A DNA stretch of 64,000 nt. It comes from Nitrosopumilus sp. Lineage in GTDB: Archaea > Thermoproteota > Nitrososphaeria > Nitrososphaerales > Nitrosopumilaceae. Location: positions 768,001-832,000 of the forward strand of contig CBDBGZ010000009.1 of NCBI GenBank assembly GCA_965205425.1. Direction: 5' to 3'. Positions 24,001-39,000 of this stretch are shown one piece after another. Each line of letters opens with the position of its first letter. Within the stretch, counting starts at the first letter, position 1. A program made the position numbers.

Positions 24001-27000
24001 TCCATCTTTTGCTGATTTCAATAATGGAAGTCTTATTAGAGATTCAGCCGGATATGCTATGAACACAATACACATATGTAAGTTAAATCATTTTCTTGTA
24101 GATAATTGAAAAATATAAAATCTAAATTACTATATGGTGACAAAATATCAAATTCTGATACTGACCCAAAAATCTATTCAACAATCTATGCTATGCATAA
24201 ATACTGGGCAAAAAAACCTCACAATCTAATTAATGAATATATTAAAAAATTTTCCAAGAAAAATGATATTGTATTAGATCCATTCTCAGGATCTGGAATT
24301 TCATTAATTGAATCATATAATTCAAAAAGAAAAGCAATTGGGATTGATATTAATCCCACAGCTTTTGCAATTACTAAAGGAATCTTAACTCCAGTAGATA
24401 TTGAAAAGTTTGAAAATGAATTTTCAAAAATTGAAAATCAATGTAAAGAAAAAATAAATTTATTTTATAAAATTAAAAGAAATAAAAAAACATATGTTGC
24501 TACACATTTTGTTTGGATAGATGGAAAACTAAATGAAATAAGATACAAAAATGGAAAAATGGTAAAATTAAAACCAACTCTATCTGATGTTCAATTAGCA
24601 AAATCATTTACATATGCAAAAATAAAACATTTCTATCCAAAAGACAAACTATTTGATAATCCTAGAATAAACGCTAATTCAAAATCTAGAGTTTGTGACC
24701 TTTTTACCCCTAGAAATACGACTGCACTAGCGATTTTACTTGATAAAATCAATAAAATTCGTGACAAAAATATTCGTGACATATTTCGATTATGTTTTTC
24801 ATCTATGTTGGGTCAAACTAGCAAAATGGTATTTGCAATAAATAATTCTATAATTAATGGTGAAAAAAAGAAATTAAGTACACGCAAGGTAGGAAGTTGG
24901 ATAATTGGATATTGGGTTCCAAATGAACATTTTGAATTGAATGTTTGGAATTGTTTTGTAACACGATATATGAAAATACTTTCAGCAAAAAAAATACAAC
25001 AAGAAAAATTTGGAAAACCTGAATTTGCAACAAATTTTAAAAAATTGAAAAAAACAGATATTTTTTTAATAAATAAATCTGCCATTCAAGGATTAAAGAA
25101 AATTCCTAACAATTCTATTGATTATATTATTACTGATCCACCTCATGGAGATAGAATTCCATATTTGGAATTAAGTCAGATGTGGAATAGTTGGTTAAAA
25201 AATAAAGTAAATTACAAAAATGAAATTATTATTAGTAATTCAAAAAGTAGGAATAAAAATATTGAAAACTATCTAAAATTATTAGAAGATACAGTATCAG
25301 AAATGATTAGAGTATTGAAACCCAATAAACGATTAACATTCATTTTCAATACTCATAGTGAAAGAACATGGCAAGAAATTTTTAAATTCACAAAAGATAT
25401 TGGTTTGAAAATAGATGATATTTCAACAATGAACTATTCTCGTAATTCTGTTGTTCAAGAGCATAAAGAAAATGGATTACGTTTTGATTTTGTATTGACA
25501 TTTAAAAAATTACAAAAAACGAATTAATTTTTGAATTTATTTTTTAACCAATTGATTTCTATATCTCTATTATGAATATACTCTGGATTTTGTTGAACAC
25601 CCAAAATGAAGCGTTTTTCAGCTAATAGAAAACGAATAAAATGATATATGTAGTTTATTTTTCCAATTTCTTTTCTTGATGAAAATATACGATTTCCATT
25701 TTTTGTTAATAGTTCATTAGGATTTTCAGAAACACAGTCTATGTTTTTTTTGAAAAAGGCTTCATCACATCTTTGAATAATAAAATTTTTAATTTCAGGT
25801 TCAAGATTGTTATTTTCCATATGTTTCCTTAGAAGGGGAGGAACAAAGTAAAGATCATTTTCTATCCATCTTGTAAAAGTTCTTGTAAAACCAGGTTGTA
25901 TTGTAATCCAAGTTAAACTATCCATTGATGAAATTTCATCTATATTTTTTACACAAAATCTACATACTTGATTATACATATACAAAAATAATTTTTTAAA
26001 TTGTTTCTGATTAATCAGTTTAAGTCTTGATGTACCTAAATACAGTAAATGCATAGATTGTGATAAAAACATACCTAAAAGATCTGCTGGTTCTGCCTCT
26101 TCCATATGTTGAACGTGCGTTTCTAATTCAGATTCTCCTACAATTTTGTATATTTGAAAGAAATACAGTTTATTTTCTTGAAAATTTGTTTTATCAAGAC
26201 GTTTTGAAAATTCCCATTCAAAAGTTCTTTCTTTGTCATTTAAACATGGAATAGAAACTGTAATTATATTATTTTTAATTGAGATTAATCTTCCTATAGC
26301 TGTTCTAATTCCTACAAATGTTTCATCTTTTGTTTTTGAATCTAAATAAATTCTTTTAAAATTAATTGGAGAATTATGAGACATTATTGTTTTTCCATCA
26401 TCAAAAAGATAGTAAGCATATTTCCAATCGTATAAACTATCATACCATTTTTTTTCTACTAATTTTGAATTACGATCATGGTTTGGATGAATTTCATTTG
26501 GAAGATCTATACCACATTTTTCAGAAAACTCTAAGACTTTAGAATCATCACCTGTATTGATTAATTCTAAAATCTGCTCCCAAGCAATTAATGAGCTACT
26601 TTTTTTGTAGGATTTTCTTTATTTGGTTCTTGTAACCAAACATCTAATGAAATAAAATTCTCTAATTCTGGGCAAAGTCCATGATACACTAACAGATTTG
26701 TTTCTTGGCCACCCCAATTTTGAATTACTACCTTGCCTCCAGGAACTTTTTCTTTGTTAAGAATCTCTAATGTGATTGGAAATCTATGAAAATCCAACCA
26801 ACCCCGTCTACTGTTATCAGTGACACCAGCAAAGATTTTACTCATTTTTAATCTCTCAAAATTATTTAGATCTCTTGGTAATGTAGTTAAGAATTGATAT
26901 TCACCATCAATTTCATCTAAAATTTTTTTGATTTTTTCTCCAGAGAGTTTTTTTGCATCAAAATCTTTTTTAATTTTATTAACAGCCTCTTTTAGATTCA

Positions 27001-36000: not shown

Positions 36001-39000
36001 AACTAATTCCACTTGAATTTCAAACTCTTTTACAATTTCTCTTCTTAATTTTTCAGCATTGTCTTTATATTGTTGAGTTTTTAGATGATCTTTTTCTTTT
36101 CCTTTGGCTTTTTCTAAAGCATCTTCAAATTCTGATTTTGTTTTTTCATTTTCAGTATGTAAAATGTATATCTTATCTGGTGGATTTTTTCGTAATCCTT
36201 CTTTAACAACAATTTGAGTATCTCCAACTGTGGCTATTTGTATCATATAGTAAAAATAATATTTGTATAATACAATATAAAGTCTTCATCATTCAGGCAC
36301 TATTCTATTGTATGAAACAAAAGATTTCAAAACTAATGGGTGACGACCATATCGTCAAGCAATTTGCTGAAAATACTAGACCTCTAAATCTAGTTCAAGC
36401 TTTTCTTTATGCTTGTTTTGGAGGATTCTCAGTTAGAGAAATTCTAGAGGTGTAGCGAAATTGAGTACTATTACTAAAGAAAAAATACCTAGTCTTACTG
36501 AAGAAATTGATACTCCTGAAGGTATAGTCAACTTTTTACAAAAAAGAAATGGATTATACTCTAAGGATTATACTTCAAGATATTCTGTAACTGAACTAGT
36601 TGGTTGTCAAAGAAAGTCTTTGTACAAACAACAAGAAGTATCTCAAGAAGAATTACTTGCAGATACAACTCTTGAAAGTATGTGGGCAACTGTTCGTGGT
36701 GATTTCCTACACAACATGACATATGCATACAAATGACGTGAGATGGATATTGAGCATTACATACCATTAGACAATGGTAAAGTAGCAACACTTGCAGGAA
36801 GGCTAGACATGTATGATTGGAAAACTAAAACAATCATTGATCTAAAAACTACAAAATTTGTTAGATGGCAAATAAAGCAAGGATTTTTGCCAAAACCTGA
36901 ACACATTCTTCAATTACAATGCTATGATACAATGTTTTCAGAATATGTGCCAGTAGAGAATCTAAACATTGTATATGCTGACATGTCTGATATTGTAACC
37001 TACAAGGTAGAAAAAAGAGACTTGACTGATTGGATAAAGACTAGAATCCAAGAAATTGAAACTGCTAAAACAGATAGTGTAATTCCAAATGGTGAAGTAT
37101 CTGGTTTATGCAAGTTTTGTAGGTATCAAACTAGATGTTCAGAGGCAGGAAATGGATTAACTGACAAACCATTATCTACTCCAAAACCAAATGAGGAATC
37201 TTCATGAATTGTGAATCACCATTTCATGATTGTTGGATTTTGTTATTTGGAGAGTGCAAAAAATGTTATTCAGATGTGTATCAATCTAAAATATTCAACT
37301 GAGAAATATTGTTCAGGTAACAAAGATTACCAGAATTTATGCCTAGAATCAAGTTCTAACCATTAATTGTAGAATTAGAAATGATTTCAAACCTAACTAA
37401 ATCCAAAAAATCACTAAAAATCTAGGTTGATACCCAAGAGAAAAGTAGTTCCTACTATTGTAGAAAACTAACTAAGATAGTTCCTCAACTCATACCTAAT
37501 TTTATAACATAATTTTGGAGAAAATCTAGGTTGATACCCAATCAGATAGTTTCGAACCATTAATTGTAGGAAACAAAACATTTTCGTTCCAGGATAAATC
37601 CCACAAATCCAATAAAATCTAGGTGTATACTCCCTGTAAAGATAGAAAATGATTACGGCTGTAAATCTCCACGTCATTAAGAGAAACTTAACATCCCTAA
37701 CCTCTAGGTGCGTATGGGGAATTGAAAGAATTTATCAAAACACCGTACCAAAACTAGTTGTCAAGGTTATCAAAGTGGTCTAATTACCCAGATTTCATTA
37801 GACTACCTTGACTACTTCGACCACTTGTATCAATTCCATACTTTACTGCAAATGCAGTGATCAAATCTTTTGACAACACATAACTTGTAATTTTATGATA
37901 TTTGTTATTTTTTGAGACATAGTTGTGCTTCTTTTTTGCATGAAAGGTTTGCTCAAGAATACTTGCCAATTTATTCATAGTTATTTTTGTTCCAAATTCA
38001 TCAGGATAAAAAGTTCTTTGTGATTGATCTAATGTACCTGGCAGGTCAAGATTGTCATGAATGATAAGATTCCACAAATCAAGTGCTTTAATTTGATAAT
38101 TTTTATCAAGGTTTGATGAAATGATTTGAAAGAGTTTTGCAACTATGCTATTCTTTATTCCTTCTTGACGTTGTGATATATAGAATTGTGCAACCTGATT
38201 TGCTTTATCAAAGTATTTTGTATCAATAGTAGTAGAAATAAAATCATCCCACAACTCAGCATCTCTATTTTTTAATTTTGAATTAATGGGTGTAGGTATT
38301 TGCATTATGTTCTGTAATTTCCATACAAGTAGTTTGTTTCGTAACTGTTGAAGTGATTTCTTTTCTTCTGATGAAAGTTTCTTTATGTTTCCTTTAGGAA
38401 TACCTGACATCATATGAATGACGGCTAATCGTTCAACAAACCCTTTATCATTTGGAATTTTTTCTCCTGCAAACCATTTTTGACAAAATGTCTTGTAGAA
38501 AACTTGGTGTTTTCCTAGTGAATCTGTGCCTAAAATTCGTGCTTTTTTGGAACCTTTAGAATATGAACTCTTGTACATACGTAATTTTTCAGAGTTTGGA
38601 TGTAAACCTTGAGCCTCATCTTCAGCAATTGTTCCACATGCTTCTTCATCTTTTCCAAGAAAATTATACACATCAGCAGATGGAATGTCTTCACCTAGAT
38701 GACATCTATAACATAACCATGAAGCTAGATGAAGAATTGTGCTTTTACCAGATTCAGTATCACCTACACTAAATGGAAAGTGTAGTGTAGTAACCCATTC
38801 TTGACAATAACTTAACAAAATATCAATTTGAATTAGATGTCTTGTTAAATCATCAGTTACAACATATTTGTCAACCTGTGATTTTATTTCATCTAGTATC
38901 TTTTCTTTTGATATTGGTGTATTGATATAATCTAGTTCATCTTCAGTAAATGAATATGGAACATAACCACATTGGGATTCTTTGAGGGGTTTAACAAGAC

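What a model noticed while it worked through the whole genome (the two positions that open the first line are those of the whole stretch)
24106..36246. CARF - Cas4-like nuclease - split DruE-like helicase island without CRISPR, conserved in two marine thaumarchaea
A seven-gene island reads CARF-domain protein (g02321), Cas4-like nuclease (g02320), a 1249-aa DEAD/Helicase_C protein matching the N-terminal part of Druantia DruE (g02319), a 727-aa MZB protein matching the DruE C-terminus (g02317), two unknown proteins and an adenine methyltransferase; an IS66 copy sits between the two DruE-like genes. Boldest reading: a new Druantia-like anti-virus system of ammonia-oxidising archaea in which DruE is split in two genes and coupled to a CARF sensor and a Cas4-family nuclease, in a genome without CRISPR-Cas. 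New would be this gene set as one defence system.
Evidence so far: PADLOC: g02319 DruE1 1.6e-110 (best stretch profile 11-585 of 1776), g02317 DruE1 5.8e-32 (profile 1338-1738), g02320 Cas4 2.9e-12, g02321 CARF3 3.8e-25, g02314 type II MTase 8.5e-51. Same gene order without the IS on a contig of Marine Group I thaumarchaeote SCGC AAA799-D11 (L062): tblastn identities 75, 81, 49, 41, 44, 44, 68%, the two helicase parts 232 nt apart. No Cas family besides these and no CRISPR array in pfam.tsv, rna.tsv or TRF. Tyrosine integrase g02305 5 kb upstream.
(Added by a program. Inside this text positions count along the whole contig: contig position 768,001 is position 1 of the stretch shown here. "Call 12" and the like, gene names such as g00115 and contig names such as C1 are that model's own, and its searches are not shown. 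The text may have been shortened before it was handed on; [...] marks where a part breaks off. The agent that wrote the report below was given it as the finding of a first reader that could run no searches.)

Follow-up and report, generated by a model that had tools for sequence, protein, structure and literature searches.

The report
IS-broken archaeal helicase-nuclease defence island
This is a decaying copy of a rare, uncharacterised archaeal anti-virus gene set, built around one giant Druantia-like helicase-nuclease and carried on a 24-kb integrated mobile element; the "split" helicase is simply one gene cut by a jumping element.

Summary
The genes and all quoted PADLOC/Pfam scores are real. 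The interpretation needs correcting.

1. The two "DruE-like genes" are one gene of about 2044 aa. A 1411-bp IS66 copy (29411-30821) cuts it, flanked by a perfect 8-bp target duplication. Removing it restores an open frame. The relatives carry single 2038-2084-aa proteins.

2. The "two unknown proteins" are one 476-aa gene, frameshifted in an A7 run. Its fold includes an RPA-like OB domain.

3. A second Cas4-like paralogue (36461-37207) was missed. It carries a TGG>TGA stop.

4. The whole block is cargo of a 24.4-kb integrase-borne element. It has 16-bp direct repeats, and the closest relative has an empty site.

The conserved intact set in three related loci is:
- a CARF-wHTH regulator
- two Cas4-family nucleases
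- a DruE-like helicase with a PLD domain
- the OB protein
- an alpha-class methyltransferase
- a 148-aa protein

[quoted passage not shown] A Cas4-YprA link was noted in 2017.

Verdict: a new variant of a known kind, and inactivated in this genome.

The parts
18596..18611 (+). Left copy of the 16-bp direct repeat (attL) of the integrated element
   Evidence: ATAGAAACCACT[C/T]TAT occurs at both junctions and once at the empty site of the closest relative G012.
18672..19814 (+). Tyrosine integrase (380 aa)
   Evidence: Pfam Phage_integrase 5.3e-11. 46% identical to the integrase next to the same gene set in L092.
20724..21170 (-). Conserved 148-aa protein of unknown function
   Evidence: Orthologues lie beside the system in L014 (64%) and L092 (49%). 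No Pfam or NCBIfam match. The palindrome lies upstream of it.
21207..21219 (.). Palindrome TTGTATAATACAA, candidate operator/promoter element (copy 1)
   Evidence: 3 exact copies in the window; 4 matches with up to 1 mismatch against 0.38 expected, and 0 of 100 shuffles reach 4.
21665..23765 (.). Two further IS remnants (DDE_Tnp_1 ORF 21665-22615; IS630-like DDE_3 + HTH ORFs 22705-23765) separating the 148-aa gene from the methyltransferase
   Evidence: Pfam.
24106..25527 (+). DNA methyltransferase, 473 aa, intact; motif I (FSGSG) lies N-terminal and motif IV (DPPH) C-terminal
   Evidence: PADLOC MTase_II 8.5e-51 and PglX|PglXI 2.7e-48. Pfam N6_N4_Mtase 1.3e-19. Motifs read from alignment A6. 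Same position in L092 and L014, at 68-79% identity.
25524..27001 (-).
   Evidence: It is a single 476/477-aa ORF in L092 and L014. tblastn switches frame at about residue 130, and the A-run is seen. Model pLDDT 91.3. OB-fold matches with Z 7-9.4 (Foldseek).
26998..29402 (-). 3' part of the DruE-like gene: OB-CON-MZB(DUF1998) plus PLD/MIT_C-like C-terminus. The called ORF starts only at 29181; the 74 codons above it are orphaned
   Evidence: PADLOC DruE1 5.8e-32; Pfam MZB 3.4e-9 and MIT_C 4.3e-4. The stretch is in frame with the 5' part once the IS is removed. The invariant H-x-R of the PLD-like domain is kept.
29403..29410 (.). Target-site duplication, copy 1 (ATTTAATG read on the minus strand)
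   Evidence: Read from the sequence.
29411..30821 (+). IS66-family element, 1411 bp, single 446-aa transposase ORF (29473-30813), 24-bp terminal inverted repeats
   Evidence: Pfam DDE_Tnp_IS66 5.7e-32 and zf-IS66 2e-7. Inverted repeats. 5 full-length 100%-identical copies in the genome with exactly these ends.
30822..30829 (.). Target-site duplication, copy 2
   Evidence: Read from the sequence.
30822..34551 (-). 5' part of the DruE-like gene (RecA1/RecA2 helicase core with zinc-ribbon inserts). The called ORF 30802-34551 ends with 6 IS-encoded residues
   Evidence: PADLOC DruE1 1.6e-110; Pfam DEAD 3.1e-24 and Helicase_C 3e-14. 77% identical to the 2042-aa P0003.
34548..35285 (-). Cas4-family nuclease A (245 aa), intact; its stop overlaps the helicase start
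   Evidence: PADLOC Cas4 2.9e-12. D, DxK and QxxY motifs and the C...CxxCx5C cysteines are invariant.
35322..35334 (.). Palindrome copy 2, upstream of Cas4A
   Evidence: Also present at the same place in L013.
35347..36246 (-). CARF + winged-helix protein (299 aa), Csa3/Crn1/HFX_2341-like
   Evidence: PADLOC CARF3 3.8e-25; Pfam HFX_2341_N 1.9e-10. Model pLDDT 84.7. CARF domain Z 15.8 to Csm6; whole-length matches to Sis0811 (Z 14.7), SSO1393 (12.7) and Csa3 (11.3).
36263..36275 (.). Palindrome copy 3, upstream of the CARF gene in the divergent promoter region
36461..37207 (+). Cas4-family nuclease B, broken by an in-frame TGA at 36734-36736 (TGG in three relatives)
   Evidence: Intact at 248-250 aa in L013, L014 and L092. 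Codon alignment. 47% identical to Cas4A.
43033..43048 (+). Right copy of the 16-bp direct repeat (attR)

Best explanation
Window 18612-43032 is a 24.4-kb integrated mobile element. Its main cargo is a rare YprA-family (Druantia/ARMADA-related) helicase-nuclease defence module. In this genome the module has been knocked out by three independent lesions.

The intact module, as seen in L092 and L014, reads as follows:
- a CARF + winged-helix regulator;
- Cas4-family nuclease A;
- one helicase of about 2040-2075 aa (RecA1/RecA2 core, zinc-binding inserts, OB-CON-DUF1998, C-terminal MITD1/PLD-like nuclease domain with an H-x-R site);
- a 476-aa protein with an RPA-like OB fold;
- a convergent alpha-class DNA methyltransferase;
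- a second Cas4-family nuclease B and a 148-aa protein nearby.

Shown here: the anatomy, the conservation, the integrated-element borders and the lesions.

Inferred mechanism, by analogy with type III Druantia. The helicase loads at ssDNA/dsDNA junctions of invading DNA, unwinds it and degrades it with its PLD-like domain. The two Cas4-like nucleases and the OB protein would take the place of DruH, which is absent here: they would resect and bind DNA ends to create or mark the substrate. The methyltransferase would mark the host's own DNA. The CARF-wHTH protein would control the operon's promoters through the shared palindrome, possibly in response to a nucleotide ligand.

In the window copy, an IS66 insertion cuts the helicase after residue 1243 and orphans the invariant LPRFAFPG segment. 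The OB-protein gene is frameshifted. Cas4B has a premature stop. The system is therefore most likely non-functional here.
For: IS insertion in one gene.
- There is a perfect 8-bp duplication, and the reading frame is open across the excised junction: 2044 aa with only the terminal stop.
- The IS ends match 5 identical genomic copies.
- Of the 31 homologues with at least 42% identity, 26 are 2038-2084 aa and 5 are 1628-1706 aa. All 31 carry DEAD, Helicase_C and MZB in one chain.
- Single ORFs of 2072 and 2074 aa are present in L092 and L014.
- The invariant L-P-x3-F-x-G columns fall in the 74 codons upstream of the only available start codon.

Other lesions.
- The frameshift and the TGA are documented.
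- Contigs of 3 runs from 2 studies show the same A-run, TGA and IS junctions, and none joins across the IS.

Integrated element.
- The relative G012 joins window 18611 directly to 43033, with a 16-bp overlap.
- The integrase sits at the left end.
- GC falls to 0.25-0.28 at 24-28 kb, against about 0.31 elsewhere.

One module.
- The same genes occur in L013, L014 and L092.
- Cas4A/helicase and helicase/OB-gene overlap by 4 nt each.
- The same palindrome lies upstream of three of the genes.
- Contig-length coincidences link CARF to the helicase (10 pairs) and the OB protein to the helicase (3 pairs).

Defence role.
- PADLOC gives DruE1 3e-147 for the intact orthologue.
- The closest solved chain is a 2108-aa helicase, 9tu7, at 2e-88.
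- Published type III DruE has two MITD1-like PLD domains with His1999/Arg2001 (section read). Our family has an invariant H-x-R, also kept in the window copy.
- The gene is very patchy: 1 of 401 genomes of the class (the window's own) at E<=1e-40, and no orthologue-level match in 60 relatives.
Against: - No experiment exists for this lineage, so the defence role is inferred from homology and context only.
[quoted passage not shown] 2025, not Druantia. The analogy with type III DruE is therefore across clades.
- No DruH was found: no PADLOC hit on any ORF of the element. The proposed Cas4/OB substitution is conjecture.
- A related helicase in a Promethearchaeota contig (L127) has quite different neighbours, a 629-aa unknown protein and a radical-SAM protein. 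The partners are therefore specific to the thaumarchaeal subclade.
- The position of Cas4B differs in L092.
- The methyltransferase and both Cas4 genes are far more conserved (68-88%) than the helicase and OB protein (42-48%) between the window and L092/L014. That could mean modules of separate origin.
- The runs laid may derive from the same strain as the assembly, so they are weak independent support for the frameshift.
- The IS cuts the helicase near the junction where DISARM is naturally split into DrmA and DrmB. Residual function of two fragments cannot be excluded.
- The source of any CARF ligand is unknown.
Confidence: 0.7

Rival explanations
1. One reading: a Druantia-like system in which DruE is naturally split into two genes (helicase + MZB protein) that work together, as DrmA/DrmB do in DISARM.
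For: Two ORFs are called. Each matches a different part of the DruE profiles. [quoted passage not shown] 2025, section 8 read).
Against: The break is an IS66 copy with a perfect 8-bp duplication, and its removal restores one frame. 5 identical IS copies point to a recent insertion. All 31 close homologues are single chains, as are L092 and L014. The 74 orphaned codons hold invariant residues.
Confidence: 0.02
2. The IS-split helicase, and perhaps the other broken genes, still work. The two fragments would assemble as DrmA/DrmB do, with the 3' fragment expressed from an outward IS promoter, so the island would still be an active defence system in this strain.
For: The cut lies between the RecA2 region and the OB-CON-DUF1998 array. 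The 727-aa ORF has its own ATG. Cas4A, the CARF protein and the MTase are intact. The catalytic H-x-R is kept.
Against: The invariant LPRFAFPG segment is lost from both fragments. There are two further, independent inactivating lesions in the same module. No relative shows such a split.
Confidence: 0.08
3. Not one system but neighbouring independent modules on a mobile element: an orphan or R-M-type methyltransferase, a pair of solo Cas4 nucleases with their CARF-wHTH regulator, and a helicase-nuclease with its OB partner.
For: Conservation is unequal between the window and L092/L014: MTase and Cas4 genes 68-88%, helicase and OB protein 42-48%. Cas4B sits elsewhere in L092. The related helicase in L127 has other partners. 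The MTase is convergent, not co-oriented.
Against: The full set recurs in every related locus that is long enough: 2 of 2 for the MTase and OB gene, 3 of 3 for CARF, Cas4A and Cas4B. Cas4A-helicase-OB are translationally coupled. The palindrome is shared by three promoters.
Confidence: 0.15
4. The module serves the mobile element itself (replication, recombination or repair of its DNA) rather than defence of the host. It would be a helicase, nucleases and an ssDNA-binding OB protein used much as RecB-like or MrfAB-like repair machinery is.
For: It is carried by an integrase-borne element. L014 has a PriX primase-domain gene upstream. The YprA family includes the repair helicase MrfA (6znp hit at 4.3e-37). 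Cas4-like and OB proteins are common in replication and repair.
Against: The helicase scores far better against DruE defence profiles (3e-147) than against MrfA. It carries the zinc-module inserts and the PLD-like C-terminus described for the defence branch (sections read). The supplement of Bell et al. places the L092 protein in the ARMADA/Druantia defence branch. Loss by three lesions, while the element persists, argues that the module is dispensable for the element.
Confidence: 0.05

Closest known systems
Druantia type III (DruH-DruE)
   Same: A giant YprA-family helicase with zinc-binding inserts, an OB-DUF1998/MZB array and a C-terminal MITD1/PLD-like nuclease domain with an H-x-R site. 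PADLOC DruE1 3e-147 and DruE3 5e-108 for the intact orthologue. Best solved match is 9tu7. Published architecture read.
   Different: There is no DruH: no PADLOC match, and the downstream partner has an OB fold, not Ig-like domains. The extra partners (two Cas4-family nucleases, a CARF-wHTH protein, a methyltransferase) are not part of type III. The helicase is placed outside the Druantia clades in Bell et al.'s table. The hosts are archaeal.
ARMADA type I (YprA helicase + BrxHII-like helicase + PglX-like methyltransferase; Bell et al. 2025 preprint)
   Same: [quoted passage not shown] A methyltransferase with a PglX-profile match (2.7e-48) is linked to it. ARMADA type I is also found in archaea.
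   Different: No BrxHII-like second helicase gene was found. The C-terminal nuclease is PLD/MIT_C-like, not Vsr. Cas4, CARF and OB partners are not described for ARMADA: no 'Cas4' or 'CARF' outside the reference list in its main text or in its held supplements.
DISARM (DrmA helicase, DrmB DUF1998, DrmC PLD, DrmMI/MII methylase)
   Same: The same set of activities: YprA-type helicase, DUF1998, PLD nuclease and DNA methyltransferase. After the IS insertion the window copy superficially mimics the DrmA/DrmB split.
   Different: The split here is an IS artefact. DrmA profiles score much lower (1e-24 to 1e-26) than DruE profiles. The PLD domain is fused to the helicase, not a separate DrmC.
Cas4-like nuclease + YprA-like (COG1205/DUF1998) helicase link noted by Hudaiberdiev et al. 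2017 (PMC5704561)
   Same: The same pairing, reported for 'several bacteria and mesophilic archaea' and proposed as an uncharacterised defence pathway (passages read).
   Different: That paper gives one paragraph and a figure. I could not see the figure, so I cannot tell whether these thaumarchaeal loci are the ones shown. In the passages found it mentions no CARF regulator, no second Cas4 paralogue, no OB protein and no link of these loci to a methyltransferase or integrative element.
Csa3 / Crn1-type CARF-wHTH proteins and HFX_2341 (Crr) of Haloferax
   Same: A two-domain CARF + winged-helix architecture. Z 14.7 to Sis0811, 12.7 to SSO1393 and 11.3 to Csa3 over about 190 residues. Pfam HFX_2341_N 1.9e-10. 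HFX_2341 is a Csa3a-like repressor also found in species without CRISPR-Cas (passages read).
   Different: Here the protein is encoded inside a helicase-nuclease operon on a mobile element, in a genome with no detectable Cas1 or Cas10. Its ligand, DNA site and any ring-nuclease activity are untested.

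Membership tests
Druantia (any type) | DruE signature helicase (YprA-like SF2 helicase with DUF1998/MZB) | tested here: met
   PADLOC DruE1 1.6e-110 and 5.8e-32 for the two window fragments. DruE1 3e-147 for the intact L092 orthologue. Pfam DEAD, Helicase_C and MZB.
Druantia type III | DruH partner gene next to druE | tested here: not met
   No PADLOC match at E<=0.01 on any other ORF of the element or on the L092/L014 neighbours. 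The 476-aa neighbour folds with an OB domain, whereas published DruH has six Ig-like domains.
Druantia type III | C-terminal MITD1/PLD-like nuclease domains on DruE | tested here: met
   Pfam MIT_C at 4.3e-4, below the curated cut-off, in the window fragment. PF13091 and PF16565 are precomputed on the homologues. PLDc_2 1.4e-18 plus MIT_C in L127. The H-x-R is invariant, and published PaDruE uses His1999/Arg2001.
Druantia (clade membership of the helicase) | Helicase falls in one of the Druantia clades of the YprA tree | not tested
   I built no tree. Table S1 of Bell et al. [quoted passage not shown]
ARMADA | BrxHII/RapA-like second helicase in the operon | tested here: not met
   BrxHI/BrxHII profile hits fall only on the helicase-C region of the DruE-like protein itself. 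No other ORF matches.
ARMADA | PglX-like methyltransferase in the operon | tested here: inconclusive
   PADLOC PglX|PglXI 2.7e-48 covers residues 150-468 against profile 330-622 of 919. The best hit is a generic type II MTase at 8.5e-51. The protein has 473 aa, about half a PglX.
ARMADA | C-terminal Vsr-type nuclease on the YprA helicase | tested here: not met
   The C-terminus matches PLD/MIT_C families instead.
DISARM | Helicase (DrmA) and DUF1998 protein (DrmB) encoded by separate genes; separate PLD (DrmC) | tested here: not met
   The separation is caused by IS66. Relatives have one gene. The PLD-like domain is fused.
CARF superfamily | Rossmann-like CARF fold with the conserved glycine-rich loop after strand 4 | tested here: met
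   Z 15.8, rmsd 2.3 over 125 residues to Csm6 CARF; Can2 and Cam1 at Z about 15. N-x-T-G-G-T is invariant in 46 sequences. PADLOC CARF3 3.8e-25. That this loop is the ligand-binding motif is recalled, not tested.
Cas4 family (DUF83 / PD-(D/E)XK with Fe-S cluster) | RecB-type motifs (D, D/ExK, QxxY) and four cysteines (C...CxxCx5C) | tested here: met
   All are invariant in 7 sequences of both paralogues. PADLOC Cas4 2.9e-12 and 2.6e-15. NCBIfam cas4 scores 37.9 bits, below its 65-bit cut-off, so this is a family member and not a CRISPR Cas4 equivalog. The motif definitions are recalled.
CRISPR-Cas | Cas1 / Cas10 / repeat array in the genome | tested here: not met
   0 matches for PF01867 and TIGR02577. 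TIGR02578 scores only 23 bits against a 170-bit cut-off. No CRISPR-like array among the 9 periodic-repeat candidates. The genome is 99.55% complete.
IS66 family | DDE_Tnp_IS66 transposase, terminal inverted repeats, 8-bp target duplication | tested here: met

The most novel reading that the evidence does not exclude
The intact versions in L092, L014 and about a dozen metagenomic contigs of ammonia-oxidising archaea may be a self-contained, previously undescribed class of YprA-helicase immunity. In this reading two Cas4-family nucleases and an RPA-like OB protein replace DruH as the DNA-end processing and sensing part. A methyltransferase provides self-marking. A CARF-wHTH protein ties expression to a nucleotide signal in hosts that have no CRISPR-Cas. 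CARF signalling would then have been co-opted by a non-CRISPR, helicase-based system carried on integrative elements.
Probability: 0.35. Interest if true: 0.65.

Novelty: new variant of a known kind. Interest (0 to 1): 0.45.

Why it matters
Ammonia-oxidising archaea are among the most abundant microbes in the ocean. They mostly lack CRISPR-Cas, and their antiviral repertoire is poorly known.

This locus documents a rare helicase-nuclease module related to Druantia and ARMADA with an unusual partner set: two Cas4-family nucleases, a CARF-wHTH regulator, an OB protein and a methyltransferase. The module moves on an integrase-borne element.

It also shows such a module being dismantled in one genome by an IS and two point lesions, which is a snapshot of defence-system turnover.

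For annotation practice, the case is a warning. A 'split' signature gene should be checked for an insertion sequence and a target duplication before being called a new architecture.

Tried and rejected
- The search for related loci with the 1249-aa fragment alone found no relative in genome contigs. The alignment-based scans worked.
- Complex prediction of Cas4A + Cas4B + the 476-aa protein gave 'no answer' (score 0.00 against a mark of 0.32). This is neither for nor against binding.
- PADLOC, Pfam and NCBIfam found nothing for the 476-aa protein, the 148-aa protein, orf454 or the small ORFs. The 148-aa protein's 4TM 'Effector' hit (6.9e-4) is rejected, because the alignment shows no membrane-length hydrophobic segments.
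- The ESM Atlas gave only sub-0.9 hits for the 148-aa protein.
- A PDB sequence search with Cas4B returned only a spurious repeat-protein hit.
- The hhalign comparison of the L127 radical-SAM neighbour with the OB-protein family was negative.
- The class-III cyclase-domain gene was considered as the source of a CARF ligand. I rejected it as part of the system because no homologue was found in L013, L014, L092 or L127 and it has no PADLOC match.
- A literature search for 'type IV Druantia/DruK' was swamped by unrelated words. PADLOC's type IV is DruE+DruF+DruL, which does not match this locus.
- The internal repeat search did not pick up the att repeats. They came from the empty-site comparison.
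- No contig in the four runs laid joins exactly across the IS. Contigs cannot prove that an IS-free allele is absent.
- Earlier-findings look-ups returned nothing.

Full report
**What is there.**
- methyltransferase, 24106-25527 (+)
- two unknown ORFs, 25524-26384 and 26588-27001 (-)
- a 727-aa MZB protein, 26998-29181 (-)
- an IS66 transposase, 29473-30813 (+)
- a 1249-aa DEAD/Helicase_C protein, 30802-34551 (-)
- a Cas4-like protein, 34548-35285 (-)
- a CARF protein, 35347-36246 (-)

The tblastn identities to the SCGC AAA799-D11 contig (my locus L092) were also reproduced.

**The 'split DruE' is an IS66 insertion.**
- The region holds 49-nt imperfect inverted repeats.
- Reading the two junctions shows an element running from GTAACTGTCTAGAG... 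to its reverse complement. It is flanked on both sides by the same 8 bases (ATTTAATG on the minus strand; 29403-29410 and 30822-30829).
- A search of the window's own genome with 29411-30821 returned 5 full-length copies at 100% identity with exactly these ends, plus fragments. The element is therefore defined to the base and recently active.
- Leaving out the IS and one duplication copy gives a 6135-nt frame of 2044 codons whose only stop is the last one.
- The 1249-aa ORF ends with six IS-encoded residues.
- The 727-aa ORF begins at the first in-frame start codon, 74 codons downstream of the break. Those 74 codons include the LPRFAFPG segment, whose L, P, F and G are invariant in 30 homologues.

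**Homologues agree.**
- Among 2646 hits at E<=1e-10 (8000 candidates scored, best 120 listed), there are 31 proteins with at least 42% identity (P0002-P0032). Of these, 26 have 2038-2084 aa and 5 have 1628-1706 aa.
- All 31 carry DEAD, Helicase_C and MZB in one chain, many with PLDc_2 or MIT_C.
- L092 and L014 have single ORFs of 2072 and 2074 aa.

**Two more lesions.**
- The two 'unknown proteins' are one gene. L092 and L014 have a single 476/477-aa ORF there. In the window the match changes frame at about residue 130, inside a run of seven A (26600-26606).
- A second Cas4-like gene was overlooked, because it appears as two ORFs (36461-36736 and 36743-37207). It is intact at 248-250 aa in L013, L014 and L092. 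The window has TGA where all three have TGG (36734-36736).
- Logan contigs of runs X2 and X4 (one study) and X5 (another study) cover these places with 0-1 differences. They show no indel at the A-run, the same TGA and the IS junctions, and none joins across the IS.
- These runs may stem from the same strain as the assembly, so this mainly excludes an assembly slip.

**The island is an integrated element.**
- The closest relative sampled is G012, a complete genome about 90% identical in the flank.
- In G012, window 17497-18611 is directly continuous with window 43033-49788, and 16 bases align to both ends.
- These bases, ATAGAAACCACT[C/T]TAT, occur at 18596-18611 and 43033-43048, and once in G012.
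- So 18612-43032 (24.4 kb) is an insertion. Its tyrosine integrase sits at the left end.
- In L092 a 46%-identical integrase also sits next to the gene set, after Cdc6 and PolD-DP1 genes. L014 has a PriX-domain gene upstream.
- The element has also collected a DDE_Tnp_1 IS and an IS630-like IS between 21.6 and 23.8 kb.

**Which genes belong together.**
- The window's proteins were searched by tblastn against 158 loci that encode helicase relatives (79 metagenomic, 79 genomic). Partners turned up only in L013, L014 and L092.
- CARF, Cas4A and Cas4B are present in all three. The OB-protein gene and the MTase are present in both loci that extend far enough.
- The 148-aa ORF (20724-21170) has orthologues in L014 and L092.
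- Cas4A/helicase and helicase/OB-gene overlap by 4 nt each.
- A 13-nt palindrome, TTGTAT(A/T)ATACAA, occurs exactly three times in the window, against 0.38 expected for matches with up to 1 mismatch. Each copy lies just upstream of a gene of the set: the 148-aa gene, Cas4A and the CARF gene. It also occurs at the corresponding places in L013 (twice) and L092 (once).
- CARF homologues (53 at E<=1e-5) share their 'longest contig' length with helicase homologues in 8 cases, and in 2 more after the cluster look-up. OB-protein relatives do so in 3 cases. I read these as the same contigs. This is inference, not observation.

**What the parts are.**
- Helicase. For the intact orthologue, PADLOC gives DruE1 3e-147, DruE3 5e-108 and DrmA about 1e-26. 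The best solved relatives are a 2108-aa helicase (9tu7, 2e-88), 9wae and MrfA. The C-terminus is PLD/MIT_C-like with an invariant H-x-R, retained in the window. Published type III DruE has two MITD1-like PLD domains with His1999/Arg2001 in the pocket (Loeff et al. preprint, section read).
- CARF protein. The model has pLDDT 84.7. Its N-domain aligns to Csm6, Can2 and Cam1 CARF domains at Z about 15. The whole chain aligns to the CARF-wHTH proteins Sis0811, SSO1393, Cami1 and Csa3 (Foldseek). Pfam places it in HFX_2341_N. HFX_2341 is a Csa3a-like repressor in Haloferax (passages read).
- Cas4A and Cas4B. Both keep all nuclease motifs and the four cysteines.
- 476-aa protein. It belongs to a tiny family, with 44 cluster representatives at E<=0.001 among 1.84 billion. 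The model is confident (pLDDT 91.3, pTM 0.91). Residues of about 180-300 form an OB fold that matches RPA, Stn1/Ten1, Teb1, MCM N-domains, SSB and PriB at Z 7-9.4. Foldseek adds HIN-200 and Teb1 at about 1e-4. These Z values are middling, but the hits are consistently nucleic-acid-binding OB folds. The helical N- and C-terminal parts remain unassigned.
- Methyltransferase. It has FSGSG near the N-terminus and DPPH near residue 345. It is probably an N6-adenine enzyme; the base specificity is my inference.

**How it probably works (inferred).**
- In type III Druantia, DruH binds or trims ssDNA ends, and DruE then unwinds and degrades DNA at ssDNA/dsDNA junctions (abstracts and sections read).
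- Here DruH is absent. I propose that the Cas4-like nucleases and the OB protein supply end processing and ssDNA recognition, and that the helicase-PLD protein is the effector.
- The methyltransferase would protect self DNA, as in DISARM, ARMADA or Druantia II.
- The CARF-wHTH protein would regulate the palindrome-bearing promoters.
- No Cas10, Cas1 or CRISPR array was found in this 99.55%-complete genome. Any CARF ligand therefore has an unknown source.

**Comparison with what is known.**
- Bell et al. [quoted passage not shown]
- The stored part of that table holds 11 such rows, mostly archaeal. They include a second Marine Group I cell and the Promethearchaeota contig that is my L127.
- L127 has different neighbours.
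- That paper's main text and held supplements contain no 'Cas4'. 'CARF' appears only in the reference list. The supplement file was cut when stored.
- Hudaiberdiev et al. [quoted passage not shown]
- The locus fails the partner requirements of Druantia III (DruH) and of ARMADA (BrxHII helicase, Vsr domain), and the split criterion of DISARM.
- It is therefore best filed as a new variant within YprA-helicase defence systems, not as a new category.

**Distribution.** The gene is rare. No orthologue-level match was found in 60 relatives, where the best other hit was 63 bits over about 95 residues against 2847 bits for the window's own gene. At E<=1e-40, only 1 of 401 genomes of the class matched, and that was the window's own.

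**Verdict.** What remains of interest is the conserved, mobile gene set (CARF-wHTH, two Cas4, DruE-like helicase, OB protein, MTase) in marine ammonia oxidisers, which nobody has tested.

Noticed in passing
window 41203-42582 (+): A 459-aa protein with a class-III nucleotidyl cyclase domain (Pfam Guanylate_cyc 7.3e-8, residues 247-417). It lies inside the same integrated element, preceded by co-oriented small ORFs (39819-40466, 40768-41193). It has no PADLOC match and no homologue in L013, L014, L092 or L127. It may be a separate cargo module.
   Followed up: partly
window 37784-39148 (-): A 454-aa ORF with no Pfam, PADLOC or NCBIfam match. It is 62% identical to an ORF at the corresponding side of the system in L013 (3170-4633), so it may be another conserved cargo gene of this element family.
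   Followed up: partly
window 37354-37433 and 37551-37630: An 80-nt imperfect direct repeat (70% identity, 197 nt apart) in the non-coding stretch between Cas4B and the 454-aa ORF. Its meaning is unknown.
   Followed up: no
window 21665-23765: Two more insertion sequences inside the element: a DDE_Tnp_1 ORF, and an IS630-like pair (DDE_3 + HTH in two overlapping ORFs). With the IS66 copies this genome looks IS-rich: 5 identical IS66 copies, and IS depth is 8-13 times that of the flanks in the laid contigs.
   Followed up: partly
window 50616-52606 versus L177 8010-10001: Relative to the closest genome G012, this 2-kb segment aligns in reverse orientation (82% identity). This suggests a local inversion or rearrangement just right of the element's flank.
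   Followed up: no
window versus L092/L014, whole module: Divergence is strongly uneven inside one gene cluster. Cas4A, Cas4B and the MTase are 68-88% identical, while the helicase and the OB protein are only 42-48%. The CARF protein is 75% identical to L092 but about 31% to L014. This is compatible with fast evolution of the DNA-contacting parts or with recombination between element lineages.
   Followed up: no
L127 3461-5350 and 11448-12854: The Promethearchaeota relative of the helicase is flanked by a 629-aa protein without any family match and by a radical-SAM protein, next to an integrase-like gene. This may be another uncharacterised partner set for this helicase lineage.
   Followed up: partly
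L014 3876-6646: A 617-aa unknown protein and a 305-aa protein with a PriX primase domain lie upstream of the system. They look like a replication module of the carrying element.
   Followed up: no
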